DNA of 64,000 nucleotides from Candidatus Hydrogenedens sp. (GCA_049968235.1 JBMFRC010000008.1:32001-96000), one strand, 5' to 3'. Counted from the stretch's first letter, positions 8,017-57,405 are shown. Notes: generated from the letters alone by a model not told the origin. Translations and numbers: made by a program.

Positions 8017-8057
8017 CCCACCTATCCTTCGTTATTATTGTATTCTACAACAAACTA

Positions 8058-41213: not shown

Positions 41214-41433
41214 GAACATACAATATATAGTAGTGCAACATTATATTTATCCTATTTCAAGTATATTCTCTTAAAATTTGATATCCAATCCTTAAAAAGA
41301 AAGTTTAAAAATCGGGGTGAATTATTTTTTTTAATCATAAAACATCTAATAATTGATTTTATAGTATTTTACCTATAATTAACAGAACTTATTTATGTTA
41401 TGGCAAAAAAAATAAATTTTTTTAAAATTTTTC

Positions 41434-41460
41434 TAAAGTTTTTTCTAAAGTTGCCGATAA
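41434..41460 (+). promoter_or_regulatory. sigma28 (FliA)-type promoter: TAAAG-N15-GCCGATAA
   Basis: Read directly: TAAAG at 41434–41438 and GCCGATAA at 41453–41460. This matches the TAAA-N15-GCCGATAA consensus. It sits ~250 nt upstream of the first flagellin start. Confidence 0.55.
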
Positions 41461-41709
41461 AATAGATGTAAAGTGGTAAAGTAAACAGTTTAATATTGAA
41501 AACAAAAGGGTGTCCGAAGGCATCGAAAGGAGGTGACCCGGTAAATGTCAGTTCGGACCATATGTAGTAATAAAAGTTGAATATAAATGCATAGGTATGT
41601 TGTAGGGACGCAACATAAAACCGAAGCATATTCGTTGTTTTGATTAAGGGACAATCAAAACAACACAAGGCAAGGACGCAACAAACATTAACTCATGGAG
41701 GAATTTGTT

Positions 41710-42525
41710 ATGGGTCTTAGAATTAACACCAATGTACCGTCATTGAATGCGGCACGCGTTCTACGGCGTTCAACGCTGGATTTGAACAAAACATTGGAAC
41801 GGCTTTCAAGTGGGTTGAGAATCAACCGTGCAGCCGATGATGCAGCAGGTCTTGCTATTGCAGAAGCGTTTCGTTCAATTGTTCGTGGTTCAAATGTAGC
41901 TCAACGGAATGCACAGGACGGTATTAGTCTGGTACAGACCGCAGAAGGTGCATTAAGCGAAACCACAAATATTTTGCAACGAATTCGCGAATTGGCAGTA
42001 CAAGCAGCAAACGGCACTCAGAGCGATACCAACCGCGCTGCAATTAACACAGAAGTTCAACAGTTATTACAACAAATCGACAAGATTGCCACCGACACCG
42101 AATTTAATGGAATCTATATATTGAGCGTCTCTCAAACAGTAAATTTACAGGTAGGTGCTTTCAGCGGGCAAGTAATGGCAATAACTGTTGGTGGGGCAAA
42201 AACGAATGACCTTTCTGTTGATATTGTAAATGTATCTACAATGGCAGGTGCGGTATCTGCATTGTCCTTAGTAGATAATGCTCTAAAGAGTGTAAATACA
42301 CTCCGCGCTACTCTGGGTGCTTATCAGAATCGTCTTGAATTTACAATTAACACACTGGCGATTCAGGAAGAAAATTCGGCTGCTTCGGAGAGTGCTATTC
42401 GTGATGCGGACATAGCACAAGAGACAATACGGTTTACCCGGAACCAGATATTGGTAAATGCAGGTACTTCCGTACTTGCCCAATCGAATGTCGTTCCACA
42501 AACTGCATTGCAGCTGTTAAGATAA
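41710..42525 (+). CDS. flagellin (short, ~271 aa), paralog 1
   Basis: N-terminus MGLRINTN...LSSGLRINRAADDAAGLAIAE. C-terminus ...VLAQSNVVPQTALQLLR. The likely true start is the internal Met at 41710, with a GGAGG Shine-Dalgarno 8 nt upstream; the ORF track begins at 41695. Confidence 0.92.
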   Translation: MGLRINTNVPSLNAARVLRRSTLDLNKTLERLSSGLRINRAADDAAGLAIAEAFRSIVRGSNVAQRNAQDGISLVQTAEGALSETTNILQRIRELAVQAANGTQSDTNRAAINTEVQQLLQQIDKIATDTEFNGIYILSVSQTVNLQVGAFSGQVMAITVGGAKTNDLSVDIVNVSTMAGAVSALSLVDNALKSVNTLRATLGAYQNRLEFTINTLAIQEENSAASESAIRDADIAQETIRFTRNQILVNAGTSVLAQSNVVPQTALQLLR

Positions 42526-42615
42526 TAAAACTTTAACAGTAAAAGGTGTGTTCAAAATGAAACAATTAAGGGCAGGGAAAGCCCAAAGAAATAAGTAACT
42601 CAAGGAGGAATAACT

Positions 42616-43431
42616 ATGGGACTTCGTATTAACACAAATGTATCAGCGTTAAACGCTGCCCGTGTGTTACGCCGTAGCACACTGGATTTAAACAAATCCT
42701 TAGAGCAATTGTCCAGTGGTCTGAGAATTAACCGTGCTGCGGATGATGCAGCAGGACTGGCTATTGCAGAGAGTTTCCGCGCTCAAGTTCGTGGTACACA
42801 GGTGGCTCAGCGAAATGTTCAGGATGGTATTAGTCTCGTTCAAACGGCAGAAGGAGCCTTGAGCGAAACGACAAACATCCTGCAACGAATTCGCGAATTA
42901 GCCGTGCAGGCAGCCAATGGAACCCAAAGTGATACCAACCGTGCCGCAATCCAGACCGAAGTAGGTGAATTGATTAGTCAAATTGATAAGATTGCTACGG
43001 ATACAGAGTTTAATGGTATCAAAGTTTTAACAGGGGCACAATCAGTTGTCATGCAAGCAGGTTATTTACAAGGGCAAACGCTAAGTTTAACAATTAGCGG
43101 TGCTACGGCAGCGATACTGAGTGTAAACAATCTGGCGGTATCCACTCGGTCTCTTGCAGAATCCGCCATTACACTGGTTGACAATGCTTTGAGATCTGTA
43201 AATACCTTGCGGGCGACATTGGGTGCTTATCAGAACCGTATGGAGTTCACAATTAATACCTTAGCCATTCAGCAAGAGAACTCCTCAGCCTCTGAAAGTG
43301 CTATTCGCGATGCGGATATTGCTCAGGTAACCATTCGGTTCACCCGTAACCAGATACTTGTAAACGCAGGAACTTCCGTATTAGCTCAAGCCAATGTCGT
43401 CCCACAAACAGCATTACAATTATTAAGATAA
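42616..43431 (+). CDS. flagellin, paralog 2
   Basis: Same conserved D0/D1 termini as paralog 1, with a divergent central ~60 aa. GGAGG Shine-Dalgarno upstream. Confidence 0.92.
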   Translation: MGLRINTNVSALNAARVLRRSTLDLNKSLEQLSSGLRINRAADDAAGLAIAESFRAQVRGTQVAQRNVQDGISLVQTAEGALSETTNILQRIRELAVQAANGTQSDTNRAAIQTEVGELISQIDKIATDTEFNGIKVLTGAQSVVMQAGYLQGQTLSLTISGATAAILSVNNLAVSTRSLAESAITLVDNALRSVNTLRATLGAYQNRMEFTINTLAIQQENSSASESAIRDADIAQVTIRFTRNQILVNAGTSVLAQANVVPQTALQLLR

Positions 43432-43524
43432 TTGATGGGAAACATAAGGTTTGATTAAAATTGAATTACTCTTGGACAAAAAACTCATGGATGGGATAAC
43501 AATAACTCATGGAGGAATTTAGTT

Positions 43525-44340
43525 ATGGGTTTAAGAATTAACACAAATATACCGGCAATAAATGCAAGCCGGGTACTCCGCAGAACAACAGCGGATTTGA
43601 ACAAAACGTTGGAACAATTATCCAGCGGTTTGCGTATCAATCGTGCTGCAGATGATGCGGCGGGCCTTGCTATCGCTGAAGCATTTCGTTCCCAGGTATT
43701 GGGAACAGGTGTAGCCCAGCGGAATGCCCAAGACGGTATCAGTCTTGTTCAAACAGCAGAAGGTGCTTTGAGCGAAACGACAAATATTCTGCAACGGATG
43801 CGTGAACTGGCTGTTCAAGCGGCAAATGGCACACAAAGTGATAGTAATCGTTCGGCAATACAAGGTGAAATCAATCAACTGATTCAACAAATTAATGCAA
43901 TTGCTACCGATACAGAATTCAACGGTATCACAGTTTTAAATACAACCAGTGCTATTCAAATTCAAGCAGGGGTATATTCCGGACAAACCCTTGCTTTGAG
44001 TATGGCTTCTGCAACAGCCGCTGCACTGGGTGTCAGTCTTGTCAGTGTTGTTTCTGCTGTGTTAGCCGCTTCCGCAATCAGTGTAATTGATGCGGCATTA
44101 GGCACTGTAAATACCCTGCGAGCAAGATTGGGTGCTTATCAGAATCGTCTGGAATTCACAATAAATACCCTCGCTATCCAGCAGGAAAATGCCTCCGCAT
44201 CAGAAAGCGCTATTCGCGATGCAGATATTGCTCAGGTGACGATACGCTTTACCCGAAACCAAATTTTGCTGAACGCAGGGACATCTGTATTGGCACAAGC
44301 TAATATTGTTCCCCAGACAGCATTGCAGTTGTTGAGGTAA
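43525..44340 (+). CDS. flagellin, paralog 3
   Basis: Same architecture as paralogs 1–2. Central region rich in Ala/Ser/Val. Confidence 0.92.
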   Translation: MGLRINTNIPAINASRVLRRTTADLNKTLEQLSSGLRINRAADDAAGLAIAEAFRSQVLGTGVAQRNAQDGISLVQTAEGALSETTNILQRMRELAVQAANGTQSDSNRSAIQGEINQLIQQINAIATDTEFNGITVLNTTSAIQIQAGVYSGQTLALSMASATAAALGVSLVSVVSAVLAASAISVIDAALGTVNTLRARLGAYQNRLEFTINTLAIQQENASASESAIRDADIAQVTIRFTRNQILLNAGTSVLAQANIVPQTALQLLR

Positions 44341-44350
44341 AGTTACTCTC

Positions 44351-44376
44351 GAGGGCAGGGTATATCCCCTGCCCTC
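44351..44376 (+). terminator. GC-rich hairpin (10-bp perfect stem GAGGGCAGGG/CCCTGCCCTC, 6-nt loop) after flagellin 3
   Basis: Read directly. Begins 10 nt after the flagellin-3 stop codon. The downstream U-tract is weak. Confidence 0.5.
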
Positions 44377-44501
44377 TGTCTGGAACATATATTATCAGTA
44401 TTAACCTTTTCAGGGATGGCGTGAAAGACCTGAAAGCATGTCTGATAATTAAAAGAAAGGGAATTCTGGATAAGTGTTAAACACTCAAGGAGGTAAGAAC
44501 T

Positions 44502-45317
44502 ATGGGACTTCGAATAAACACAAATATCCCGGCTTTAAATACCGCACGGGTTCTACGGAAGTCTACTCTTGACCTTAATAAAAGTCTGGAAAGGTTAAGT
44601 AGTGGTCTGCGTATTAACCGCGCTGCGGATGATGCAGCAGGGCTTGCCATCGCAGAAAGTTTCCGGGCTCAGGTTCGCGGGACAAATGTGGCTCAACGAA
44701 ATGCACAGGACGGTATCAGTCTGGTTCAAACAGCAGAAGGTGCATTGAGCGAAACAACAAATATCCTGCAACGGATTCGCGAACTTGCAGTTCAGGCAGC
44801 GAATGGAACACTAAGTAGCACAAATCGAAGTGCATTGAACACAGAAGCACAGGAGTTAATTTCGCAAATCGATAAGATTGCTAATGATACTGAGTTCAAT
44901 AGTTTACGGATATTAAGTGCTACCAACAGTGTTGTTCTTCAAGCAGGTCCTAATCAAGGACAAACACTGACTGTTTCCATTGATGCAGCAAATGCCAGTG
45001 TGTTAGGTGTAAGTGGGATTTCTCTGGCTTTTGCAGATTCTGCTGCTGCGGCTATCACAAAAGTTGACGATGCATTAAGAAGTGTAAATACTCTCCGAAG
45101 TAAATTAGGTGCTTATCAAAATCGGTTAGAGTTTACTATTAACACTCTTGCCATTCAAGAAGAAAATGCAGCATCTTCAGAAAGTGCTATCCGCGATGCA
45201 GATATTGCCCAGGAAACAATCCGGTTTACTCGCAATCAAATTCTGGTGAATGCGGGAACATCTGTGCTTGCACAAGCCAATATCGTTCCCCAGACAGCAT
45301 TAGCATTATTGAGATAA
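44502..45317 (+). CDS. flagellin, paralog 4
   Basis: Conserved termini, ending ...TALALLR. Most divergent central region of the four. Own GGAGG Shine-Dalgarno. Confidence 0.92.
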   Translation: MGLRINTNIPALNTARVLRKSTLDLNKSLERLSSGLRINRAADDAAGLAIAESFRAQVRGTNVAQRNAQDGISLVQTAEGALSETTNILQRIRELAVQAANGTLSSTNRSALNTEAQELISQIDKIANDTEFNSLRILSATNSVVLQAGPNQGQTLTVSIDAANASVLGVSGISLAFADSAAAAITKVDDALRSVNTLRSKLGAYQNRLEFTINTLAIQEENAASSESAIRDADIAQETIRFTRNQILVNAGTSVLAQANIVPQTALALLR

Positions 45318-45337
45318 AATAGAGGAGGCGGAGCACT

Positions 45338-45745
45338 ATGGGTATGTCGCGTATTGATTTTCAGAATACCGCGGCTCTTCCTATGGTTATACATGGAGAA
45401 ACTCCGTTACCCGCTCCGCCTCGCATTCCTTCTTCACAAGGTTCAGGAGCAGAAAACCCAGTTGTTGTTTCTGACAGAACTGCTCCCGGCGAGGCGGAAC
45501 AAAGAGCCGAATTGCAAAAGGAAACTGTCGGGCAAATTACAACTGAACGAAATGAAATTCTGAAAAAATTAGAACTTCCCATGACAACTACGCGTTTAAA
45601 GGTAGATGAAGAAAATCAACGAATTGTTATTCAGATTTTAGATTCTCAAAATCAGGTTATCCGTCAAATACCACCGGAAGAATGGCTAAAATTTCTGTCA
45701 CGCTGGCAAAAAGTACAGGGCTTATTCTTTGATGAACAAGTATAA
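45338..45745 (+). CDS. flaG: FlaG-family flagellar protein
   Basis: 135 aa. C-terminal block RLKVDEENQRIVIQILDSQNQVIRQIPPEE typical of FlaG. GAGGAGG Shine-Dalgarno. Lies 20 nt after flagellin 4. Confidence 0.75.
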   Translation: MGMSRIDFQNTAALPMVIHGETPLPAPPRIPSSQGSGAENPVVVSDRTAPGEAEQRAELQKETVGQITTERNEILKKLELPMTTTRLKVDEENQRIVIQILDSQNQVIRQIPPEEWLKFLSRWQKVQGLFFDEQV

Positions 45746-45794: not shown

Positions 45795-46472
45795 TTATGG
45801 AATTATTATCCAGGCGCCAGGGATACATTTATCTCCTAATTTTTGGCCTAAAGAACTATTCTTTATCTTCTGGAAATCATCATTACCATCCGGTAATTGA
45901 ACTGTTTGTCCGGGTTTGGCTCTTTGAATACGTTCCAATGCGTAAATAGATTCTATTTTAGAGATAGACATGTCAGGAATATTTTTGTTTAGATTGGCAA
46001 TTTCCTTATATAAGGCTTTCCTATCTTTATTTTCATCAGAAAGTAATCTTTGAATCTCATTTTTCTTCTCCGCATCTTTCAAGGCATCACATTCTTTCAA
46101 TTCCAGATATCCCCTATTATTTTCCGCAAGACATCCTTGATTTTTTAATTGTTCAATTTGTTCGAACCGTTCACGCATACGGTCTGCAATTTCTTTTGCC
46201 AATGGAGAAACCGTCGCCAATGCTTCAGCATAAACAGGAGTAAATACATGGAAAGTTGAACCTAACCAACTGGTTTTGTTCTTGTTATCCTCTTCTTTAA
46301 CGGGTAATTCATCTGTTTTCTTCTCTACATAATCTAAAAGATTACCCGCTTGCTCCTGAACATGTCGAATATCAAGTGTGATATGTGCCTCAATAGTATG
46401 CTTGGTTTGTAGAACGCAATTGATACTTAGCAAAACGCCTATTACGAAAAAAACGGACGAAATTTTCTTCAT
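45795..46472 (-). CDS. secreted hypothetical protein, coiled-coil, possibly DUF1318/YdbL-like
   Basis: Signal peptide. Charged coiled-coil region. A GYLELKECDALKDAEKK block loosely resembles YdbL-family proteins. Confidence 0.3.
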   Translation of the reverse strand: MKKISSVFFVIGVLLSINCVLQTKHTIEAHITLDIRHVQEQAGNLLDYVEKKTDELPVKEEDNKNKTSWLGSTFHVFTPVYAEALATVSPLAKEIADRMRERFEQIEQLKNQGCLAENNRGYLELKECDALKDAEKKNEIQRLLSDENKDRKALYKEIANLNKNIPDMSISKIESIYALERIQRAKPGQTVQLPDGNDDFQKIKNSSLGQKLGDKCIPGAWIIIP

Positions 46473-48021: not shown

Positions 48022-51000
48022 TTGGGGTTAAGAGTCCTTTACCTTTCCGATGCAATAAAAAATCCGGATTTTTCAGCACCCCTACACGATGCGGAATTTA
48101 AAGATTACTGGGCAAGGGCTATCTTATCCGGTAATTATACACCTCCACGGAATGAAGGTAATCCATTTATGGAAGGTCATCCCCTTCCCAATCCACCGGG
48201 CTATCCCTTATTCCTTGCATTGATTTATTGGTTAACAGAAGGTAGTTATCTCGCCGTGCGATGGGTTCAAATTTGTATTGGACTTCTTAATATATTCCTT
48301 GTGTATCTATTAGGCAAAAACCTCTTTGATTATAAAGCCGGGCTTTTTTCTGCATTAGGAGTGGCTACCTACTGGGCGTTTGTCCACTATGATATGGAAC
48401 TTAATCAGGTTACCATCTTTATAACCATAAATTTATTATGTTTCAATTTACTTCTACAGGCATATAAAAAAAATAAATTAGGACTACTTTCCTTAGCAGG
48501 TCTTATATTCGGGATGGGGGCATGGTTCCGTGGCGAAGTGTTTATTCTCATTTTCCCGCTAACAATATTTGTTATGTTCCTTTTTTTTCATCCGGGACGG
48601 CTAAAAACTGTTTTTTACACAGGATTGTTATTCTTAGTTTCTGCACTACTATCTGTGCTTCCATTATCTTTATACAATTACTATCTTTGTGGTTCGTTTA
48701 CTTCAGGCTCACATAATAGCGAATGTAGTATCTCCATCGCTTTTCACCCGGACACACCCGAATACGGTTCATATACACCGGAGATGCTTCGATGGCTCAA
48801 TAAAACGCCTGAGGATACGGTGGAAATATTTGATCTGGACGGAATGACCCTTGGCTTAGGAAAACAATTAGGATTGGAACGAAGAGCAACTTATAAGGAA
48901 TGGAAAAATTATCTTATCTCCGGTGCTATACATAATATAAAAACATATCCATGGCTCAATCTTAAAAAATGCTTAAAACGATTTTTATGGACTTTTTCCC
49001 CACAAGAATTGGATGAAAATAAAGTGATTTATTATGAGCGAGAAGTTTCAACAGTACTAAAATACTTACCTCGTTTTCCTCTCGCAATGAGTTTATTCAC
49101 TTTAAGCCTTATTTTACTCGTTATCTCCTTGTCATCAAAAGGGGCTATACCGATAAAAATAAGCACTTGCTCCTGGAAATTCATATTCGTCTTGTTATTT
49201 TTTGTTGCAACAAATATCAGCATTTTTTCGCTTTTGATAGCAGGAAGTCGATATCGTATATCCCTTCTCCCCTATTTTTTTATTTTTGGTGGTATTGTTT
49301 TTTCGTCATTATGGGAAACGGTCTCGAACAAAAGATGGAATTGGGCTACTTTGATTATTTTTGGTTTCCTTATTCTTTTTTCGTTAGCCCATGTTCCATT
49401 TTTCGATTACCAGCCCAACCGCTCCCGATGGTTAGATGAACGGCGAAAATGTTATCAGAGAATTGGAAAGATAGCGGAAGGAGTACAATTCTTTGAAAAA
49501 TGGTTAGAAAAACATTCAGACGCAGATGCTCATTATCACGCGGGGGTCCTTTGTTATGAACTCAATGAACTAACAAAGGCAGAAGAACATTTTTATACTT
49601 GTCTCAAATTATCACCTGACCATCCATCCGCTCCTTATAATTTAGGTTTGATTTTTGCAAAAAGAGGTGATTGGGCAAAAGCAGGAAAATATTTTGAGGA
49701 AGCCGTAAAAAGAAATCCGAGCAAAGCGGATATGTGGTTCGCATTAGGTTGGGCAACTGAAAACAGTGGTGATTTATCTACTGCATTAGAGCATTACACA
49801 CATGCATTGAATATAAATCCACACCATACTCAGGCATTAAATCATAGTGCCGTAATTATGTTTCAAAAAGGGGAAGGAAAAACTGCAAAACAACATCTTG
49901 AACAGGCAATTCGCATTGACCCTAACTATGTAGATGCACGATTTAATTTGGGTCAAATTCTCTTAGCGGAACGGAAACCTGCAGATGCCTTGAAGCAATT
50001 CATGACTGTTAAAGGGAAGTATCAACCGGAACATGAATTATTAAAATGTATAGGATTATGTTATGTCCAGATGCTTGATTATAAGGAGGCACTAAATTAT
50101 CTCTTAAAAGCAAAGGGAATGAACCCCGAGAAATGGGATGCAGAAGATAGTCTTGCTGTCTGTTACGCAGGATTAGGCATGCGAGAAGAATGTATACGAA
50201 CAATTGAAATATTAGAGGATAAATTATCTAATTCAATACAGGTTTTTAATTTGGGGCATGCATGGGAATTACTGGGAGAATGGGATAAAGCAGAAACTTA
50301 TTATAAAACTGTTATTGAAAAAGATAAAAACAATGCAGATACATACGCAGGATTGGGAAATATTTCTTTAATTCGTGGGGACAAAAACTCCGCTTACATG
50401 TATTTCAAACAGGCATTGGAAATTAACCCACATCAAGTTGGGGCATGGTTCAATTTAATTTTATCATGGGTAGAAAATCGAGAATGGGAAAAAGCAAAAA
50501 CACAGTTAATAGAGTTTATAAATTATTATCCCGAACATATAGAGGCATACTATAATTTAGGGATTGTAAATGAAGCCTTAGGCAATATTGAGGATGCAAA
50601 AAAGTCGTATGAAAAAGTGTTAGAAAAGAAATCAGACCATTCAGGGGCTTTATTCTCCCGCGCTACTATTGCTTTATCGGAAATGGATTTAGAAAATGCA
50701 AAAGAACTATTTGAGAAACTTAAGCCTATTGAACCGTTTAAATCTTTATATCATTTAGGAATTGTTTATTCATTAAAGGAGGATTGGAACAATGCACATG
50801 ATTGTTTCTTAAATTCTTTTTTTATAAATCCTCAACCCTTTTATAATGATTATATATATGCGTTTAATATCGGTAGAAGTTATGACCATCTTGACTGCTT
50901 ATATGAGGCGGAGAAATTCTACCGTATTTCTTTTGAATTGAATAATAATTTCGTAGATGCGAAAGATGCCCTCTCTTTTCTTCTTTTTCAACAAGGAAAT

Positions 51001-52014
51001 ACAGAAGAAGCATATTTTTTGTTAAATTCTATATTCTTATATCAAAAACCTACGAACTGGTCATATTACCACTACTCCCTTGTCTGGGAACACATGAATG
51101 AACCCTCAATAGCGTTAAGTTTTGCAGAACAAGCCAATGCGATAATGCCGAATCAGTCGCCAATCCTTCATCAATTAGGGGGATTATATCGCAAATTGAA
51201 AAATTATAATCTCGCCGAACAATATTTAGAGCAGGCAATGACACTTAACCCTCATGACGCAACAATTACAAAAACATTAGCCTTTTTACATTCCGACCTT
51301 GAGCGGTATAAAGAAGCAAAAGAATTGTTCATAACTTGCACAAATTTGCTTCCTGACGACCCGGAGGTGTATGAAGGACTTGCTGATGTCTATATAAAGA
51401 CCGGCGAATTAAAAAAGGCAGAAGAAAACTATCGCAAAGCATTAGCAATCAAGGATACCCCCACAGTAATTAACAAGTTAGGATTATTACTTGCTGATTT
51501 AAATAAAATCTTTGAGAGTGTTGGACTATTGGAAATAGCCGTTAAATACTTTCCGAATGATGCCATCACACTTACACGACTTGCTGACTTGAAAGTGATT
51601 TTACACTCCGATATAGAAGCAAAAACACTTTATGAACGGGCATTGGCAATAGATACTCAAAATTATCTAACTCATAGAAACTATGCAGATTTGTTAGTCC
51701 GTTCCGGTGAATATGAACTTGCCGAAAAACATTACAAACTTGCCATAGAACTTCACCCCAAAGACCCAGTTGCACAAGCAGGACTGGGATTACTATATGC
51801 TCGTATAAATAAATATGAGGAAGCCAAAAAATATTTGATACCTCTGGCACAAGTGAAGACAGATTTACTTAATGTAAACCAACAACTGACTCAGATATTC
51901 CTTTCAGAAAATCAACCTGAAAAAGCCATTAAATACATCAAACGATGTATACTGGCACAACCAGACCGAAAAGAATTCCGTGAACTTCTTCAACAGGCTA
52001 CTCAGATGCGGTAA
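48022..52014 (+). CDS. GT-C fold membrane glycosyltransferase (PMT/ArnT, GT39/GT83-like) fused to a very long C-terminal TPR array
   Basis: The N-terminal ~470 aa are polytopic. They carry a DE-type loop (HDAEF) and the PPGYPLFLALIYWL block typical of ArnT/PMT loop 1. The remaining ~850 aa are tandem TPRs (many W..LG, A...Y.KA repeats). The annotated start is a TTG, and the first TM helix appears to be encoded upstream of it (see findings). Confidence 0.7.
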   Translation: MGLRVLYLSDAIKNPDFSAPLHDAEFKDYWARAILSGNYTPPRNEGNPFMEGHPLPNPPGYPLFLALIYWLTEGSYLAVRWVQICIGLLNIFLVYLLGKNLFDYKAGLFSALGVATYWAFVHYDMELNQVTIFITINLLCFNLLLQAYKKNKLGLLSLAGLIFGMGAWFRGEVFILIFPLTIFVMFLFFHPGRLKTVFYTGLLFLVSALLSVLPLSLYNYYLCGSFTSGSHNSECSISIAFHPDTPEYGSYTPEMLRWLNKTPEDTVEIFDLDGMTLGLGKQLGLERRATYKEWKNYLISGAIHNIKTYPWLNLKKCLKRFLWTFSPQELDENKVIYYEREVSTVLKYLPRFPLAMSLFTLSLILLVISLSSKGAIPIKISTCSWKFIFVLLFFVATNISIFSLLIAGSRYRISLLPYFFIFGGIVFSSLWETVSNKRWNWATLIIFGFLILFSLAHVPFFDYQPNRSRWLDERRKCYQRIGKIAEGVQFFEKWLEKHSDADAHYHAGVLCYELNELTKAEEHFYTCLKLSPDHPSAPYNLGLIFAKRGDWAKAGKYFEEAVKRNPSKADMWFALGWATENSGDLSTALEHYTHALNINPHHTQALNHSAVIMFQKGEGKTAKQHLEQAIRIDPNYVDARFNLGQILLAERKPADALKQFMTVKGKYQPEHELLKCIGLCYVQMLDYKEALNYLLKAKGMNPEKWDAEDSLAVCYAGLGMREECIRTIEILEDKLSNSIQVFNLGHAWELLGEWDKAETYYKTVIEKDKNNADTYAGLGNISLIRGDKNSAYMYFKQALEINPHQVGAWFNLILSWVENREWEKAKTQLIEFINYYPEHIEAYYNLGIVNEALGNIEDAKKSYEKVLEKKSDHSGALFSRATIALSEMDLENAKELFEKLKPIEPFKSLYHLGIVYSLKEDWNNAHDCFLNSFFINPQPFYNDYIYAFNIGRSYDHLDCLYEAEKFYRISFELNNNFVDAKDALSFLLFQQGNTEEAYFLLNSIFLYQKPTNWSYYHYSLVWEHMNEPSIALSFAEQANAIMPNQSPILHQLGGLYRKLKNYNLAEQYLEQAMTLNPHDATITKTLAFLHSDLERYKEAKELFITCTNLLPDDPEVYEGLADVYIKTGELKKAEENYRKALAIKDTPTVINKLGLLLADLNKIFESVGLLEIAVKYFPNDAITLTRLADLKVILHSDIEAKTLYERALAIDTQNYLTHRNYADLLVRSGEYELAEKHYKLAIELHPKDPVAQAGLGLLYARINKYEEAKKYLIPLAQVKTDLLNVNQQLTQIFLSENQPEKAIKYIKRCILAQPDRKEFRELLQQATQMR

Positions 52015-53578
52015 CAGTTTTCGGATGGCTTAAAACCCGCTCCAGATAAGGAATCAGAGTATCCGCCATAATTTTTGCTTTCAGTTTTACCCCTTCCTGA
52101 CGCATGTGACAAATATCACCGAAATATTTTGTGCCCGCAGGCATATTCTCCGCAACCGGAATATAAAGGAGCCCATTATTCTCACAATAATCTCGCAATT
52201 GTTGATTAAATCTCTTCATAACATCGGAATATTGCTGAAAAGAGGAATTCGCCCAGCCCCATTCCTTATCATAATAAAAATCATAATAATCACGTTCCTC
52301 CTTGTTTACTTTTTCACGGTAAGGGACACCAATACTGGAAATACACATATCTATACCCCTTGACAAAAAAGAATGAAGTATATAATCAATATATCTAAAA
52401 ATGTATTGATTGATATATTCATCTATCTCTTCTTGCGGATATTGTAAAACTGACCTTATTTGTCTTCGCATAAATAGAGAGAAAAGTAATGCAATACGTG
52501 TTATTACCCGTTTACTATCAAAAGCATGGGAAAATACTTCGTAAACTACATCGTTAATTCCTTCATATAAAATCACCATGTCAGGTTGAAAATATAAATA
52601 ATCCGGTAATTTCGCACAATGCTTCTTTAAAACCATACCAGAAATACCACAATTAAAGACTTCAATACGATTTTCTCCGAAATGTTTTTTCAATTCTTGC
52701 TCTAAGAATTTTGGATAGGTCTCTTGATTAGAAATACCCTCTTCCGTAGTAGACGCACCAATACACAGGATGCGGAAAACTCCTTCGGGTTTCGGAACCT
52801 TAAAATCTTTATCTCTATAACCAAAATTATTGATTCGAAATGCCATCTCTGTAGAGTTCCGATGAGGCATATAGGAGAAATAATTTATGTCCCATAAGTC
52901 ATTCACAGATAACTTTCCTACCCATGGATTGATAGAATCATTTTTCCCTCTATACGGTAGAGCAAACACATAGAAAGAGTAATTTTCAAGATTTTCGCGT
53001 AAAGGGTAGAAAAAAAATTTATATGGTTTTTCCTGCATCGTCTCATGCCATAAAAAAGCCCTATATGATTGAAACATATCCTTCGGAATTGTCTTTATAA
53101 TTTCTTGATATATCAACAGATTGTCATTAATCCCAAAAGCCTTATCTGTGGGAGAACACGTTATATCAAAACTTTTTTTATTAATGTTGAGTTTGAACTG
53201 CTTTATGTCATAAATAGTTCGGAAAGCCTCCTGAAAAGTTTCATCCTCATCAAAATAGAAGTTAAAACGATAACTCCACATTTCTAATGGGTCGGGCTCT
53301 GGCAGACACCATTCATCGCCAACATATAATTGTTGCAGAGAAAACAAATTTTTCCCCTCCCCATAATGAACTCCTTCTTCTTTACCCTCGTCCCATTCCT
53401 TTATTAACAATTCACCACGACGGATACGAACAAATTTGTTTGTCTTTTCGATATATTTCCACCTTAATCGTTCAAATAATTCTAGAGATAAACAGATGAC
53501 AATAAACCAGAATAAAATGAAAAAACAATAACCCAAGATATAAACAAATCTCTTCGTTTTTTTGTGCTTCAACTCCAT
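51998..53578 (-). CDS. membrane-anchored SGNH/GDSL-family hydrolase (paralog P1)
   Basis: N-terminal TM helix. NNFGYRD motif followed by SGNH blocks I (RILCIGASTTEEG), II (NCGISG), III (YEGINDV) and V (GDICH). Confidence 0.6.
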   Translation of the reverse strand: MELKHKKTKRFVYILGYCFFILFWFIVICLSLELFERLRWKYIEKTNKFVRIRRGELLIKEWDEGKEEGVHYGEGKNLFSLQQLYVGDEWCLPEPDPLEMWSYRFNFYFDEDETFQEAFRTIYDIKQFKLNINKKSFDITCSPTDKAFGINDNLLIYQEIIKTIPKDMFQSYRAFLWHETMQEKPYKFFFYPLRENLENYSFYVFALPYRGKNDSINPWVGKLSVNDLWDINYFSYMPHRNSTEMAFRINNFGYRDKDFKVPKPEGVFRILCIGASTTEEGISNQETYPKFLEQELKKHFGENRIEVFNCGISGMVLKKHCAKLPDYLYFQPDMVILYEGINDVVYEVFSHAFDSKRVITRIALLFSLFMRRQIRSVLQYPQEEIDEYINQYIFRYIDYILHSFLSRGIDMCISSIGVPYREKVNKEERDYYDFYYDKEWGWANSSFQQYSDVMKRFNQQLRDYCENNGLLYIPVAENMPAGTKYFGDICHMRQEGVKLKAKIMADTLIPYLERVLSHPKTVTASE

Positions 53579-55056
53579 TAACTTTTTCCTGATTGTGCTT
53601 TAATATATTTCACCAAATATGGTGTCGCTAATTCTGATTTTTTTCGAATTCCTTGTAATTTTTGATGACATAAATCATTAAAATAGGATGGGGATTCGTT
53701 CTGAAACATTTCATACATCGGGATATATAGAACATTCTCATTATTAAACTTTTTGCTTAACAGTCTATTATATACATCCAGAACATGGCTATACATACGA
53801 TAGTTTACGAAATTACCTCCCCACCATCTTTTTGTAACAAACTGGAAATAATCTTTCTCCTGCCATGTCATCGAGGAATAATTGGGGGCTGGCATACTCA
53901 TTACTGCAAACAATATACCTTTCTGCTGAAGATAATTGTTTATTTTTTCTATCTGGCTTAATATATCTTTATTAATATCACTTTGTATTTGTATGTCGTT
54001 GGGAAGAAAGAATAGGGGAAAAATATTCCGGCATAAATTTGAATGGATAAGTATTTTTTTTATTCCGTTCAGATGATTTAACCAGTAAGGCAGTAAAATG
54101 TGGGTTATATCATTTGCCCCTTCACAATAGAGAACAAGATTTGGTTCCATCAACAGATAATCTGGTAATCTCAGCCATAATTTATGAGCAGAAATGCCCG
54201 GTATTCCAGCATTAATCACTTCAATTTTATATTGTTGCTGGAATTGTTCCAATAAAAGTTTTTCCATGATATTTGGATAGGTTTCTTGCTCTGTAGGACC
54301 CTCTTCTGTGGTCGAACCACCGATACATACAATTCGGAACACACCTAATGGTTTAGGAACTACCACATCCTCATCACGAAATCCAAAATTGTTCGTATGA
54401 AATTCATAAGAGTTCAATTGTGCATGTTTCTTATACTCAAAATAAGGTATTTCCCAGATTCCGTTTCTATCCTTTATATTTCGGGGATAATTATTATTAC
54501 CTGCTTTATACCAGCATACCATGACCCCACGATTTTTCGTGTCCATTTTATAATAAACAAAAAGGTCGGAAATACTTTCCTCACCTTTTGCAAAAGAATG
54601 ATAATATTTTGAATAAACTTCCTGGCTTTGAATTGGTATTTCCTTCTCTAATATATTTATCAGTTCTTCATCAAAGTAATTTTTCGTAGTGGGTTCAGGC
54701 AGGTATGTAATTATCTCTTTTTTATCCATATCTTTTACAAGGGTGGTTATTTGATAAAAAGAAGAAAACAATTGTCTGTCGGTTTCATCCAATTGTAAGA
54801 AAAACTTTGCCCGATTGGCATACCATTGAGACATATCAGGAGAGTGAAACTTTTCTACAGATTGCAGTGGTTTTTGCGACACAACTTCACTGTGGCTCCA
54901 TGGAGGTTTATCATTCAAAGAGGAGATGAGAGGATTCTTTTGTATAACAAGATATTCATATATACGCACTACACATTCAGCAACTGCAATTGCAACAATA
55001 ATCCAGAGAAAAAAAATCAATATTTTACCGATACTTTTTACGAAATGATATTTCAT
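53578..55056 (-). CDS. membrane-anchored SGNH/GDSL-family hydrolase (paralog P2)
   Basis: N-terminal TM helix. NNFGFRD motif followed by blocks I (RIVCIGGSTTEEG), II (NAGIPGIS), III (CEGANDI) and V (NDLCH). Stop overlaps the P1 start by 1 nt. Confidence 0.6.
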   Translation of the reverse strand: MKYHFVKSIGKILIFFLWIIVAIAVAECVVRIYEYLVIQKNPLISSLNDKPPWSHSEVVSQKPLQSVEKFHSPDMSQWYANRAKFFLQLDETDRQLFSSFYQITTLVKDMDKKEIITYLPEPTTKNYFDEELINILEKEIPIQSQEVYSKYYHSFAKGEESISDLFVYYKMDTKNRGVMVCWYKAGNNNYPRNIKDRNGIWEIPYFEYKKHAQLNSYEFHTNNFGFRDEDVVVPKPLGVFRIVCIGGSTTEEGPTEQETYPNIMEKLLLEQFQQQYKIEVINAGIPGISAHKLWLRLPDYLLMEPNLVLYCEGANDITHILLPYWLNHLNGIKKILIHSNLCRNIFPLFFLPNDIQIQSDINKDILSQIEKINNYLQQKGILFAVMSMPAPNYSSMTWQEKDYFQFVTKRWWGGNFVNYRMYSHVLDVYNRLLSKKFNNENVLYIPMYEMFQNESPSYFNDLCHQKLQGIRKKSELATPYLVKYIKAQSGKS

Positions 55057-57269
55057 TGAGGTGCCGGGAAGGTTTGCTGAGGGTTATTTTTCAGTCGCTC
55101 CAATTCCGTGGCAGGACGAAGGTCTGTGGGGTCAAGTTCTATCGCTTTCTGAAAATATTCAATTGCTTTCTCATGATTTCCTAACCCTAAATATGCCCTA
55201 CCCATACAGGTATGAGCAAATGAATCATTGGGTAATAATTGAAATGCCTTTTCCAACGCTGAAATAGCTGATTCATATTGCCCTCGATTAATGTGAATAT
55301 CAGCAATATTAATCCAGTTCCATGGGTATTGTTCCGGTTTCAATTCAACAGCCTTTGTAAACGCTTCGATGGCAAGGTCCCATTCCTGTAATTCTTTATA
55401 GGACATTCCAAGATAGGAGTATGCCTGTGCATAACCGGGGTCAAGTTGAATCACATGTTTGCAGGTATCAACTGCAGACCAATAATCGTTAACTCGCCAG
55501 AATTCCAGAGCCATAGCACATAAATCTTCTAATAAGGCTACCGATTTCTTGTTGTACGTTTTCACAGAGTCCTGTAAAGAAAATATCTGGTGGTAAACAA
55601 CCACTCGCTGAATGCCAGCAAATTCCTCTGCTTTGTAAATAATCCCTTTTTCCTTTAAATATTTTTCAAAATGATAAAGCGGTGCAGACTCAAAATAATC
55701 CCCCTGAACAACAATCCATAATTTTGCATTGGGTCTTCGTACTGGCAACAGTTTTGTAATCAGAAATTCAGCAATTTCGGCAGTATTCTCAAACTGCGAA
55801 CCATAACAAACAACATTGGGCACAGGACCTAAATTGTATAGGAAAACACGCTTCCATAATTCATTGTTTACAAGGATAATGTCTTCCGCTTTTGCATTAT
55901 GCTTGATAAATACACCTGCATTCTTCCAATCGGTGTGTTGCGGTTTCCCGAGGATTAAACTACCCTGGTACAAATACAAAAGTAGAAATGCGGTAAAGAG
56001 CAGTCGTTTTACCCATTTCTTACTTTCCACGCTATTAATAGTATAGCCAATAATCAGATACAGGGCAATCGAACTATGGAGAGTATATCTTGGCATAATA
56101 CAGGGTCGCCATAAGTGCGAAATAAAGTATAAAAATAAAGGAGGAAATAGCCACCAGATACAATAGAGCAGGATAAAAGAATTATTTGTTTTTCCAATAT
56201 TATTCGACTTTAATTCCTTATTATCTTTTTCCCTGAAAAAATAAGTCCAGATAGCCCCGACAAGGCAAAAGACATATAAAACTGCCATTACCCCCCCTAT
56301 AAAATATTGCTGTGATACAATAATCCGTGCAGTTTCTTTGCTAAAAAAATGCATCCAGAAATCGGGTTCCGCACGAAGTTGGTAAGTCCAACCAATACAA
56401 TCATCGGCAACAAGGTCGCCTATAAATTCACGGAGTGTCGGTATCTTCATCCAGGAAGAGGTCATATCCGGCGACCAAAAATTAATAGTTAGAATATACA
56501 ACACAGAAGGTAGTGAAATAAGGAACAGAGGAATAGCCCATTTCATCAGAAAAAGGATTTCTTCCCTCAAATAATCTTTATAAAACCACTCATTCGGTCT
56601 CCCATTGCGGTATCTCCAGGCACGAATGAGCAATCGGTCTACCAGTAAATATACCCCCTGAACCATAACAACCAGAGTCGCAAAGGGATGTGTCCAGAGA
56701 AGGAGAAATGTGATGATAAGGTAATAGATAAATGTTCTTCGTCTCTGTTCGCGATACCAATATATAAAAAAAAGCATGGACAGAATAGATAGGAGGGTGA
56801 ACAAACTATACATTCGTATCTCCTGTGAAAACTGCCGATGTATAGGCGACAGAGCCACGAGAAGACAGGCAATAAGCCCCGTAGAAGCATTAAAACTTAT
56901 ATTTCCTAAAATGTATGTGCTATAAATAACCGTCAATCCAATAAAGACCGAAAGAAGACGGAGAGAATAATATGATTCATCAATATAGGTATGCCAAAAA
57001 TATTCAATAGAATAATATAAAGGCATGGTAGCAGGGTCCATAGAGCGATTCTTTATCAAGAAATGCAGGATATTCATTGAAGGTTCATAATGAACACCCT
57101 GAGCCCAACGCGTAAAATTCGGCGAAGATTCATACTCAGCCAGCGGTTTCAGGTGAACAACACTACTAAATTCGTCCCACCATATAGATTCGTAACTTAA
57201 ACCTACAGAACGATATAAATAACCTGCAAGTAAAATTAAAAATAAATATAGAAATACTTTTGAATTCAT
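55053..57269 (-). CDS. GT-C fold membrane glycosyltransferase (PMT/ArnT-like) with C-terminal TPR domain
   Basis: 738 aa. N-terminal TM helix followed by a SIWWDEF DE-type loop. ~12 TM. C-terminal ~200 aa of TPRs. Overlaps the downstream SGNH gene by 4 nt. Confidence 0.7.
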   Translation of the reverse strand: MNSKVFLYLFLILLAGYLYRSVGLSYESIWWDEFSSVVHLKPLAEYESSPNFTRWAQGVHYEPSMNILHFLIKNRSMDPATMPLYYSIEYFWHTYIDESYYSLRLLSVFIGLTVIYSTYILGNISFNASTGLIACLLVALSPIHRQFSQEIRMYSLFTLLSILSMLFFIYWYREQRRRTFIYYLIITFLLLWTHPFATLVVMVQGVYLLVDRLLIRAWRYRNGRPNEWFYKDYLREEILFLMKWAIPLFLISLPSVLYILTINFWSPDMTSSWMKIPTLREFIGDLVADDCIGWTYQLRAEPDFWMHFFSKETARIIVSQQYFIGGVMAVLYVFCLVGAIWTYFFREKDNKELKSNNIGKTNNSFILLYCIWWLFPPLFLYFISHLWRPCIMPRYTLHSSIALYLIIGYTINSVESKKWVKRLLFTAFLLLYLYQGSLILGKPQHTDWKNAGVFIKHNAKAEDIILVNNELWKRVFLYNLGPVPNVVCYGSQFENTAEIAEFLITKLLPVRRPNAKLWIVVQGDYFESAPLYHFEKYLKEKGIIYKAEEFAGIQRVVVYHQIFSLQDSVKTYNKKSVALLEDLCAMALEFWRVNDYWSAVDTCKHVIQLDPGYAQAYSYLGMSYKELQEWDLAIEAFTKAVELKPEQYPWNWINIADIHINRGQYESAISALEKAFQLLPNDSFAHTCMGRAYLGLGNHEKAIEYFQKAIELDPTDLRPATELERLKNNPQQTFPAPQ

Positions 57270-57405
57270 ACCTAAGTTTTCGTTATCGCTTTATAGCCAA
57301 ATCTTTTTATACCTCAAATTATTTATAATAACATATCATAATAAGGATTGAATATTTGATGAACGCATAATAGATGCTTTTTAATTAAACCTATGGAGTA
57401 CGCCG

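What the first reader, a model, noticed from the sequence alone, without database searches (positions are those of the whole stretch)
41710..45745. Four tandem short flagellin paralogs with near-identical termini and divergent cores, plus flaG but no fliD/fliS
The four 271-aa flagellins share almost identical N-terminal (~125 aa) and C-terminal (~90 aa) D0/D1 segments. Only a ~50–60 aa central region differs, which points to concerted evolution or gene conversion at the ends with diversification in the middle. The middle could provide antigenic or phase variation, or filament-segment specialisation. The central regions are Ser/Thr/Ala-rich and so are candidate O-glycosylation sites. The array ends with flaG (filament-length control), but fliD and fliS are not adjacent. 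Proteins this short lack D2/D3 entirely.
Basis: seen in the sequence. Interest (0 to 1): 0.5.

Follow-up and report, generated by a model that had tools for sequence, protein, structure and literature searches.

The report
Old four-gene flagellin array, no conversion
An uncultured Hydrogenedentota bacterium carries four old, separately conserved copies of a minimal flagellin gene followed by flaG; this multi-flagellin layout is ordinary, and the copies' similar ends come from protein-level selection, not from recent copying between genes.

Summary
There are four tandem 271-aa flagellin genes (41710-45317, + strand) followed by flaG (45338-45745), and no other flagellar gene in the 64 kb. A predicted structure and solved 270-285-aa flagellins confirm a D0/D1-only protein.

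The gene-conversion reading fails for this window. Synonymous sites are saturated in the termini as well as the core (pS 0.68-0.84). The longest identical runs are 17-22 nt. A GENECONV-style permutation test finds no tracts (p 0.10-0.99). In close relatives (dS 0.5-1.1) every terminus is nearer its ortholog (85-94% nt) than any paralog in the same genome (70-79%).

The divergent cores are not diversifying: dN/dS between orthologs is 0.02-0.06. This argues against antigenic or phase variation, and no invertible element is present.

One relative with the same array (L083) does carry clear conversion tracts in its termini, so the process exists in the family.

New details: a perfect, conserved sigma-28 promoter (41434-41460) with a ~240-nt structured leader, and a motif CTCAWGGAGG found only before the four start codons.

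Evidence for glycosylation is weak. Tandem flagellin arrays ending in flaG are the norm in Hydrogenedentota. Verdict: a new member of a known kind, of low to moderate interest.

The parts
41418..41460 (+). Conserved promoter block that contains a perfect sigma-28 (FliA) consensus, TAAA-N15-GCCGATAA, at 41434-41460.
   Evidence: It is the only zero-mismatch match in the 64 kb. The 43-nt block has a single substitution (T to A in L083) across the window, L081, L084 and L083, and the TAAA-N15-GCCGATAA core is identical in all four, although coding synonymous sites are saturated against L083.
41468..41709 (+). Inferred 5' leader of fla1, about 240 nt; the transcription start is inferred from the promoter and not measured. 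It holds a conserved GAAAGGAGGTGAC at 41525-41537 and a hairpin at 41634-41664 with an AAGGGAC loop.
   Evidence: The RNA fold has z = -2.8 against shuffles. The motifs are conserved in relatives. There is no Rfam match.
41692..41701 (+). CTCATGGAGG, the extended Shine-Dalgarno motif of fla1.
   Evidence: The pattern CTCAWGGAGG occurs exactly four times in the window, each just upstream of a flagellin start codon, against 0.23 expected by chance. It recurs before flagellin genes in related loci.
41710..42525 (+). fla1, a 271-aa D0/D1-only flagellin.
   Evidence: Orthologs of 94-97% identity exist in public metagenomes.
42570..42584 (+). Small hairpin, GGGC-AGGGAAA-GCCC, with GGA in its loop, in the fla1-fla2 spacer.
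   Evidence: It is conserved in five genomes, with the outer pair changed on both sides in L004 (AGGC...GCCT).
42599..42608 (+). CTCAAGGAGG motif of fla2.
42616..43431 (+). fla2, a 271-aa flagellin.
   Evidence: It has a one-to-one ortholog in L004 (core 81% identical, against 42-52% to the other paralogs).
43506..43515 (+). CTCATGGAGG motif of fla3. The 23-nt leader is 96% identical to that of fla1.
43525..44340 (+). fla3, a 271-aa flagellin.
44351..44376 (+). GC-rich hairpin after fla3 (10-bp stem, 6-nt loop, weak T tract). It is a possible terminator or RNA-stabilising hairpin.
   Evidence: Read from the sequence. A hairpin sits at this position in all five genomes, with different sequences. 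The consensus terminator scan did not call it.
44422..44448 (+). Weak sigma-28-like site (3 mismatches) upstream of fla4.
   Evidence: It is conserved only in the closest relatives, L081 and L084, and not in L083 or L004. This is weak evidence.
44484..44493 (+). CTCAAGGAGG motif of fla4.
44502..45317 (+). fla4, a 271-aa flagellin.
45338..45745 (+). flaG, 135 aa, 20 nt after fla4.
   Evidence: It matches PF03646 (E 2e-15) and NCBIfam FlaG models, though below their cut-offs. flaG ends the flagellin array in 23 of the 34 Hydrogenedentota loci from the genome scan and in L080-L084.

Best explanation
This is an old, stably kept multi-flagellin locus of a Candidatus Hydrogenedentota bacterium. It has four tandem genes for minimal (D0/D1-only) flagellins followed by flaG.

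The duplications happened long ago, and the four genes now evolve independently. Their N- and C-terminal segments look alike only because these helices must fit the export chaperone, the export gate and the filament core, so amino-acid changes are removed while silent sites have diverged to saturation.

The roughly 60-residue middle segment is the D1 beta-hairpin, the following loop and the first turns of the C-terminal D1 helix. It forms the outer surface of such a bare filament. It differs between paralogs but is strongly conserved within each ortholog group. The four proteins are therefore four distinct, selected subunit types, not a diversifying or switching set.

The following steps are inferred. 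All four subunits are most likely built into the same filament, either mixed or in successive segments, as in Caulobacter, Shewanella, Bdellovibrio and Vibrio. This would tune filament shape, stiffness or surface. Transcription starts at a perfect, conserved sigma-28 promoter upstream of fla1. fla1-fla3 are probably co-transcribed up to a hairpin after fla3, and fla4-flaG follows by read-through or from a weak second sigma-28-like site. Each gene has the same flagellin-specific ribosome-binding motif, CTCAWGGAGG, with GGA-loop hairpins upstream. This would suit a common translational check of the CsrA/FliW type.
For: - Identity and fold.
- Taxon: the best genomic hits are Hydrogenedentota MAGs.
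- Independent evolution: Nei-Gojobori pS is 0.68-0.84 in the termini and 0.58-0.78 in the core for all six pairs, while pN is 0.04-0.16 against 0.38-0.47.
- Codon sharing at identical residues is 43-47% against 39% expected.
- The longest identical runs are 17-22 nt.
- The permutation test for conversion tracts gives p 0.10-0.99 in the window. The same test gives p <= 0.0005 in the positive control, L083.
- Against L081 and L084 (dS 0.5-1.1), each gene's termini are 85-94% identical in nucleotides to the ortholog and 70-79% to paralogs. Informative sites support orthology 19-75 to 0-6 in nucleotides and 3-34 to 0-1 in amino acids.
- Purifying selection acts on the core: omega is 0.02-0.06.
- One-to-one orthologs exist in the more distant L004, with cores 71-81% identical.
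- The same four-gene-plus-flaG array is present in L080-L084.
- Arrays of 2-4 flagellins plus flaG occur across the phylum.
- Promoter.
- Ribosome-binding motif.
- Hairpins.
- Precedent for multi-flagellin filaments made of short flagellins: PMC7591256 for Caulobacter (six paralogs, five structural), and the PDB entries for Shewanella FlaA/FlaB and Vibrio FlaA-D listed.
Against: - There are no expression, proteomic or structural data for this organism. Co-assembly, spatial order and any functional difference between the paralogs are inferred by analogy.
- In Caulobacter the structural flagellins are largely redundant in the laboratory (PMC7591256), so sequence conservation does not prove distinct roles.
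- The N-terminal segment shows a small excess of shared codons (47% against 39% expected).
- Against L004, the termini carry many 'by-genome' site patterns (87, against 34 crossed and 91 orthology). The core has 18, 10 and 91. Very old homogenisation of the termini cannot be excluded.
- No csrA or fliW gene was seen in the Hydrogenedentota DNA held, so the translational-control step is only a motif-based inference.
- Promoters for fla2-fla4 are not established.
Confidence: 0.7

Rival explanations
1. The termini are kept nearly identical by ongoing gene conversion (concerted evolution) between the tandem copies, while the cores escape conversion and diverge.
For: - Raw nucleotide identity is higher in the termini (70-79%) than in the core (46-57%).
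- In the related genome L083 this pattern is real. Genes 2 and 3 are identical over nt 88-287 and 676-785, with a core of about 50% identity, and pS is 0.20-0.24 in the termini against 0.62 in the core (p <= 0.0005).
- L009, L018 and L001 also have long identical runs.
- There is a slight excess of shared codons in the window's N-terminal segments.
- Against L004, 'by-genome' site patterns exceed crossed ones in the termini.
- Concerted evolution of flagellin genes is documented in Alteromonadales (PMC6053082).
Against: - In the window, synonymous sites of the termini are saturated (pS 0.68-0.84).
- There are no tracts (the longest run of agreeing polymorphic sites is 4-7; p 0.10-0.99).
- The termini are always closer to orthologs in L081 and L084 than to paralogs in the same genome.
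- The higher raw identity of the termini is fully explained by the lower pN.
- The L004 pattern could equally come from genome-specific codon preference in highly expressed genes.
Confidence: 0.1
2. The four genes are alternative filament subunits used for antigenic or phase variation or for phage evasion, with one expressed at a time and the cores under diversifying selection.
For: The variable segment is the exposed surface of a D0/D1-only filament. Flagellin surfaces are targets of phages and immune receptors in other bacteria (general knowledge).
Against: - Core dN/dS between orthologs is 0.02-0.06, which indicates strong purifying selection.
- The same four core types persist in L081, L084 and L004.
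- No invertible segment, flanking inverted repeats, recombinase or slippage-prone repeat lies at the locus.
- Only one strong promoter is present, in front of fla1, and all four genes have strong ribosome-binding sites.
Confidence: 0.05
3. The copies are functionally redundant and are kept mainly for gene dosage or robustness of flagellin supply. The core differences are functionally neutral.
For: Each of the Caulobacter structural flagellins is sufficient for filament formation and motility (PMC7591256). Copy number varies from 1 to 4 among Hydrogenedentota loci, and paralogs cluster by genome in several lineages, which suggests turnover.
Against: - Neutral cores should drift, yet each paralog-specific core is conserved at omega 0.02-0.06 while being only 32-47% identical to its neighbours.
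- All four have been retained, in the same order, since before the split from L004, where synonymous sites are saturated.
Confidence: 0.15

Closest known systems
Caulobacter crescentus multi-flagellin system (FljJ-FljO; PMC7591256)
   Same: Both have several short flagellin paralogs without D2/D3-sized outer domains, with conserved termini and a more variable exposed D1 region. In Caulobacter they are assembled into one filament.
   Different: - Caulobacter has six genes, one of which (FljJ) is regulatory.
- In Caulobacter all six flagellins are O-glycosylated with pseudaminic acid by FlmG, which has a TPR domain and a GT-B domain.
- Caulobacter is an alphaproteobacterium; that group has no known FliA-type flagellar sigma factor (PMC12826043).
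- Here there are four genes in one strict tandem array ending in flaG, with a sigma-28 promoter and no FlmG, Maf or Pse genes at the locus.
Shewanella FlaA/FlaB (PDB 9OXJ, 9OXK, 9LAH)
   Same: They are adjacent 271-272-aa D0/D1-only flagellins, 43-45% identical to fla1 and aligned over the full length. From my own knowledge, the two subunits occupy different filament segments and tune swimming.
   Different: Shewanella has two genes, not four. From my own knowledge, its flagellins are glycosylated by a Maf-type enzyme and the genes lie inside a large flagellar cluster that includes flaG-fliD-fliS. Here the array is isolated from all other flagellar genes.
Bacillus subtilis hag with the Hag-FliW-CsrA checkpoint (PMC6529632) and Campylobacter flaA (PMC4894983)
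   Same: Both are short flagellins with sigma-28 (SigD/FliA)-type transcription. Their leaders have GGA motifs, one of which overlaps the Shine-Dalgarno sequence. The window shows comparable motifs.
   Different: Bacillus subtilis has a single flagellin gene, and csrA and fliW lie next to hag. No csrA or fliW was found in the Hydrogenedentota DNA available, so the resemblance is in the motifs only.
Concertedly evolving flagellin paralogs (Alteromonadales fla, PMC6053082; locus L083 of this study)
   Same: Both are tandem flagellin paralogs with conserved termini.
   Different: In those cases paralogs within a genome share long identical or low-dS tracts. In this window they do not.

Membership tests
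Bacterial flagellin (FliC/Hag family) | N-terminal helical region (PF00669) and C-terminal helical region (PF00700). | tested here: met
   All four match at E about 1e-46 and 1e-23, far above the gathering scores.
Bacterial flagellin (FliC/Hag family) | D0/D1 helical-hairpin fold matching solved filament subunits, and distinct from the related hook-filament junction protein FlgL. | tested here: met
   The AF2 model has pLDDT 84. Foldseek top hits are flagellar filaments at E about 1e-16 to 1e-17. The NCBIfam flagellin models score 267 bits, against 105 bits for FlgL, which is below its cut-off of 127.
Bacterial flagellin (FliC/Hag family) | Export through the flagellar type III system and polymerisation into a filament. 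| not testable with these tools
   This needs experiments. No other flagellar genes lie in the window.
D0/D1-only ('minimal') flagellins | No D2/D3 insertion between the N- and C-terminal D1 segments. | tested here: met
   Only about 48 non-helical residues (130-177) lie between the helices, forming one beta-hairpin and a loop. The proteins align over their full length to solved 270-285-aa flagellins.
Multi-flagellin filament systems (Caulobacter, Shewanella, Vibrio, Bdellovibrio type) | Two or more intact flagellin paralogs in one genome. | tested here: met
   There are four intact genes, conserved as a set in relatives.
Multi-flagellin filament systems (Caulobacter, Shewanella, Vibrio, Bdellovibrio type) | Differential transcription of paralogs (distinct promoters or timing). 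| tested here: inconclusive
   There is a perfect sigma-28 site only before fla1. A weak site before fla4 is conserved only in close relatives. No promoter is detectable for fla2 or fla3.
Multi-flagellin filament systems (Caulobacter, Shewanella, Vibrio, Bdellovibrio type) | Co-assembly of the paralogs in a single filament. | not testable with these tools
   This needs proteomics or cryo-EM of filaments.
Concerted evolution / gene conversion between paralogs | Paralogs within a genome are more similar than orthologs between genomes in the converted segment. | tested here: not met
   The termini are 85-94% identical in nucleotides to orthologs in L081 and L084, against 70-79% to paralogs. Site patterns support orthology 19-75 to 0-6.
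Concerted evolution / gene conversion between paralogs | Reduced synonymous divergence, or significantly long shared tracts, in the converted segment. | tested here: not met
   pS in the termini is 0.68-0.84 and tract tests give p 0.10-0.99. The positive control, L083, gives p <= 0.0005.
Phase-variable flagellin switching (Salmonella hin/fljBA type) | An invertible promoter segment flanked by inverted repeats, with a site-specific recombinase. | tested here: not met
   The only inverted repeat lies inside coding sequence (19 nt). No recombinase domain is present in the window.
Flagellin O-glycosylation loci (Maf, FlmG, Pse/Leg pathways) | A dedicated flagellin glycosyltransferase (Maf, or FlmG-type TPR plus GT-B) near the flagellin genes. 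| tested here: not met
   None was found. The only TPR protein at the locus has an N-terminal membrane PMT_2 (GT-C) domain. It is absent beside the array in L084, L083 and L004.
Flagellin O-glycosylation loci (Maf, FlmG, Pse/Leg pathways) | Nonulosonic-acid biosynthesis genes (PseB/C/I, LegC and others). | tested here: inconclusive
   The DegT aminotransferase at 46671-47882 hits PseC at 245 bits and LegC at 226 bits, well below their cut-offs of 423 and 420. Its position next to the array is not conserved. The rest of the genome was not available.
FlaG | FlaG domain (PF03646). | tested here: met
   E 2e-15, 57 bits against a cut-off of 23.8.
CsrA/FliW-controlled flagellin mRNA | GGA motifs in the leader, one in a hairpin loop and one overlapping the Shine-Dalgarno sequence. 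| tested here: met
   CTCAWGGAGG lies before all four genes. GGA-loop hairpins are at 42570-42584 and 41634-41664.
CsrA/FliW-controlled flagellin mRNA | csrA and fliW genes present in the genome. | not testable with these tools
   tblastn with CsrA found hits only in non-Hydrogenedentota loci. Whole genomes could not be scanned.

The most novel reading that the evidence does not exclude
The four subunits may be non-interchangeable parts of one filament, either an obligate heteropolymer or a fixed longitudinal order. Each paralog-specific D1 surface would be kept by selection. Synthesis of all four would be gated together through the shared flagellin-only leader motif (CTCAWGGAGG plus GGA-loop hairpins) by a CsrA/FliW-like partner switch. 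This would be the first such circuit inferred for the uncultured phylum Hydrogenedentota. In sister lineages (L083), gene conversion would periodically reset the termini but never the cores.
Probability: 0.25. Interest if true: 0.4.

Novelty: new member of a known kind. Interest (0 to 1): 0.22.

Why it matters
The result shows that the tempting reading 'identical ends plus a divergent middle means gene conversion' is wrong here. It also gives a clean contrast: the same four-gene array shows no exchange in this lineage and clear terminal conversion tracts in a sister lineage (L083). That pair could serve to study when tandem flagellin genes do or do not homogenise.

It also documents that tandem arrays of minimal flagellins ending in flaG, with a textbook sigma-28 promoter, are the standard layout in Hydrogenedentota, a phylum without characterised motility. 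Beyond that, this is an ordinary multi-flagellin locus. No new mechanism is implied.

Tried and rejected
- Recent gene conversion was rejected using Nei-Gojobori pS by segment, codon-sharing against random expectation, longest identical runs, a GENECONV-style permutation test, and ortholog-against-paralog comparisons.
- Compositional drift as the sole cause of the 'by-genome' site patterns against L004 was checked. The AT/GC directions are balanced, so this stays unresolved between old conversion and genome-specific codon preference.
- Positive selection on the core was rejected (omega 0.02-0.06).
- Phase-variation machinery was not found: no inverted or tandem repeats of that kind and no recombinase.
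- A dedicated glycosylation island was rejected. The DegT and PMT_2-TPR neighbours are not conserved next to the array, and DegT scores below the PseC and LegC cut-offs. Sugar genes near arrays in L007 and L010 look like ordinary envelope-polysaccharide genes.
- The search for fliD and fliS found none in the window, next to arrays in L004, L007 or L080-L084, or next to the solitary flagellins in L008 and L010.
- An Rfam search of the leaders and spacers found no match.
- A csrA search in the held loci found it only in Paenibacillus and other Bacillota loci and in spirochaete loci.
- The consensus terminator scan did not call the hairpin after fla3.
- The literature holds nothing specific on Hydrogenedentota flagellins.

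Full report
**What is there.** The region holds four + strand ORFs of 271 aa: fla1 41710-42525, fla2 42616-43431, fla3 43525-44340 and fla4 44502-45317. A 135-aa ORF follows at 45338-45745. All four match Pfam Flagellin_N (about residues 5-143, E about 1e-46) and Flagellin_C (about 185-270, E about 1e-23). The fifth ORF matches FlaG (E 2e-15). The mechanical ORF list starts fla1 at an ATG at 41695, and public gene calls for its orthologs are 276 aa. That ATG lies inside the ribosome-binding motif. Pfam annotation of every ORF of 100 aa or more in the 64 kb found no other flagellar gene. The flanks encode hydrolases, transporters, redox enzymes and similar proteins.

**Organism and family context.** The nearest genomic matches are metagenome-assembled genomes of Candidatus Hydrogenedentota, at 66-80% amino-acid identity in the species-representative collection. 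Unnamed metagenome proteins reach 94-97% identity. Of the 34 Hydrogenedentota loci from that scan, 23 hold flaG just downstream of the flagellin genes, mostly after a tandem array of 2-4 flagellins of about 271-273 aa. Five further loci fetched around close homologs (L080-L082 and L084 at 94-96%, L083 at 88%) all carry four 271-aa flagellins plus flaG. In none of the loci inspected is fliD or fliS next to flaG. The solitary flagellin genes at other positions in these genomes are also isolated from flagellar genes.

**Fold.** An AlphaFold2 model of fla1 (60-sequence alignment, mean pLDDT 84) has helices at 8-100, 106-129 and 178-270 and a single beta-hairpin at 142-147/155-160. The best structural matches are full-length minimal flagellins in solved filaments: Kurthia 6T17, Roseburia 9HPZ, Leptospira FlaB and Shewanella FlaA/FlaB. 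The proteins are therefore D0/D1-only. In a filament without D2/D3, this is the outer surface.

**Test of the conversion model.** The four genes align without gaps. Amino-acid identity between paralogs is 80-89% for residues 1-132, 87-94% for 195-271 and 32-47% for 133-194. Nucleotide identity is 70-79% in the termini and 46-57% in the core. The decisive quantity is synonymous divergence.
- Nei-Gojobori pS is 0.68-0.84 in the termini and 0.58-0.78 in the core, so it is saturated everywhere. pN is 0.04-0.16 in the termini and 0.38-0.47 in the core.
- At positions where two paralogs share the amino acid, they share the codon in 47% (N-terminal segment), 37% (core) and 43% (C-terminal segment) of cases. 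Random synonymous choice would give 39%, 35% and 39%.
- The longest identical runs are 17-22 nt.
- A GENECONV-style permutation test on polymorphic sites gives p 0.10-0.99 for all six pairs. The same test gives p <= 0.0005 for three pairs in the related locus L083.

The higher raw identity of the termini is thus fully explained by purifying selection on the protein. There is no sign of recent exchange.

**Orthologs confirm this.** Against L081 and L084 (dS 0.5-1.1), each window gene is 85-94% identical to its ortholog in the terminal segments, but only 70-79% identical to its own paralogs. Informative site patterns favour orthology over 'by genome' by 19-75 to 0-6 in nucleotides and 3-34 to 0-1 in amino acids, in every segment. 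The more distant L004 still has one-to-one orthologs of fla2, fla3 and fla4, with cores 71-81% identical against 39-52% to non-orthologs. It also holds the C-terminal end of a fla1 ortholog at its contig edge. The duplications therefore predate that split, across which synonymous sites are saturated.

At that depth the termini give a mixed signal. There are 91 orthology, 87 by-genome and 34 crossed nucleotide patterns in the termini, against 91, 18 and 10 in the core. The by-genome sites are not a simple AT/GC shift. Very old homogenisation of the termini, or genome-specific codon preference in highly expressed genes, could both produce this. I could not separate the two.

**The cores are not diversifying.** Between orthologs, dN/dS is 0.02-0.06 in the core, similar to the 0.00-0.04 in the termini. 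Each paralog's distinctive surface segment is thus itself under strong constraint. There are no invertible segments, recombinases or slippage repeats at the locus. Antigenic or phase variation is therefore unlikely. Four distinct, selected subunit types is the better description.

**The conversion model does apply elsewhere.** In L083, which has the same array, genes 2 and 3 are identical over nt 88-287 and over 676-740 and 746-785. Genes 2 and 4 are identical over nt 215-305, and genes 3 and 4 over 215-287. The cores stay about 50% identical, and pS is 0.20-0.24 in the termini against 0.62 in the core. L009, L018 and L001 also show long identical runs. Several lineages have paralogs that cluster by genome. 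Flagellin concerted evolution is also on record for Alteromonadales (PMC6053082).

**Expression signals (partly shown, partly inferred).** The only perfect match to the sigma-28 consensus TAAA-N15-GCCGATAA in the 64 kb lies at 41434-41460. It sits inside a 43-nt block with a single substitution across the window, L081, L084 and L083. The inferred leader of about 240 nt folds better than shuffles (z -2.8) and contains a conserved GAAAGGAGGTGAC (41525-41537) and a 12-bp hairpin with an AAGGGAC loop (41634-41664). It has no Rfam match. The 10-mer CTCAWGGAGG occurs exactly four times in the window, each 8-9 nt before a flagellin start codon, against 0.23 expected. It recurs before flagellin genes in relatives. 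The fla1-fla2 spacer has a conserved GGC-A.GGAAA-GCC hairpin, with the outer pair changed on both sides in L004. A GC-rich hairpin follows fla3 at 44351-44376 in all five genomes compared. A weak sigma-28-like site at 44422-44448 is conserved only in the closest relatives.

I infer that fla1-fla3 are transcribed from the sigma-28 promoter, and that fla4-flaG are expressed by read-through or from the weak site. GGA motifs in hairpin loops and over the Shine-Dalgarno sequence are what CsrA recognises on flagellin mRNAs in Bacillus and Campylobacter (PMC6529632, PMC4894983, PMC13443453). However, no csrA or fliW could be found in the Hydrogenedentota DNA available, so this remains a lead.

**Glycosylation.** Ser+Thr is 19-24% in the core against 15-16% in the termini, which is unremarkable for an exposed flagellin segment. 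The downstream DegT aminotransferase scores far below the PseC and LegC cut-offs. The 1330-aa TPR protein has a membrane GT-C (PMT_2) domain, not a cytoplasmic Maf- or FlmG-type transferase (compare PMC7591256). Both neighbours are missing beside the array in L084, L083 and L004. Glycosylation is possible but has no specific support.

**Comparison and verdict.** The closest analogues are the multi-flagellin systems built from minimal flagellins: Caulobacter FljJ-O (PMC7591256), Shewanella FlaA/FlaB and Vibrio FlaA-D (structures listed), and the sigma-28/CsrA-controlled hag of Bacillus. The differences here are of detail:
- four genes in one strict tandem array ending in flaG;
- isolation from fliD, fliS and all other flagellar genes;
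- the host phylum.

This is a new member of a known kind. The headline interpretation, conversion at the ends, is not supported for this sequence. The 'variation' reading of the core is contradicted by strong purifying selection.

Noticed in passing
L083:10922-13579 (GCA_017880035.1, contig JAEDZT010003239.1): A related genome has the same four-flagellin-plus-flaG array and shows clear gene-conversion tracts limited to the conserved termini. Genes 2 and 3 are identical over nt 88-287 and 676-785, and genes 2 and 4 over 215-305. Their cores stay about 50% identical.
   Followed up: yes
window 41692-41701, 42599-42608, 43506-43515, 44484-44493: The 10-mer CTCAWGGAGG occurs only at these four places in the 64 kb, each just upstream of a flagellin start codon. 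It is a flagellin-specific extension of the Shine-Dalgarno sequence and is conserved in related genomes.
   Followed up: partly
window 41525-41537: GAAAGGAGGTGAC, a near-perfect anti-SD complement, lies about 185 nt upstream of the fla1 start in the top of a hairpin and is invariant in four genomes. It could be a CsrA site, an mRNA-stabilising ribosome-binding element, or the ribosome-binding site of a tiny leader ORF (ATG at 41545, 11 codons).
   Followed up: no
window 41684-41712 vs 43498-43527, and 42591-42618 vs 44476-44504: The leaders and first codons fall into two classes. fla1 resembles fla3 (23-nt leader 96% identical), and fla2 resembles fla4. This suggests the array grew by duplication of a two-gene unit.
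   Followed up: partly
window 41695-41709: Public gene calls for fla1 orthologs are 276 aa (MEEFVMGLRINTN...). They start at an in-frame ATG inside the ribosome-binding motif. The real start is most likely 41710, which gives 271 aa like the other three.
   Followed up: partly
window 48022-52014: A 1330-aa protein has an N-terminal PMT_2 (GT-C glycosyltransferase) membrane domain and a very long TPR region. From memory, this architecture resembles eukaryotic TMTC O-mannosyltransferases. It is not conserved next to the flagellin array.
   Followed up: partly
window 51998-59774: A cluster of four GDSL-like lipase/acylhydrolase paralogs (two on each strand) surrounds a 737-aa TPR protein.
   Followed up: no
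window 45795-46472 (- strand): A DUF1318 protein converges on flaG. It is conserved at this position in the close relatives L080-L082 and L084, but not in L083 or L004.
   Followed up: no
window 41710-45317: The flagellin genes are 44-46% G+C in a window that averages about 37-38%. This probably reflects their Ala/Gly/Arg-rich composition and not foreign origin, since the whole phylum carries orthologs.
   Followed up: no
window 6550-10741 (- strand): A sigma-54-dependent response regulator, a PAS histidine kinase and a PilT/T2SSE-type ATPase lie in a row. This may be a pilus or secretion regulatory module, unrelated to the flagellin array.
   Followed up: no
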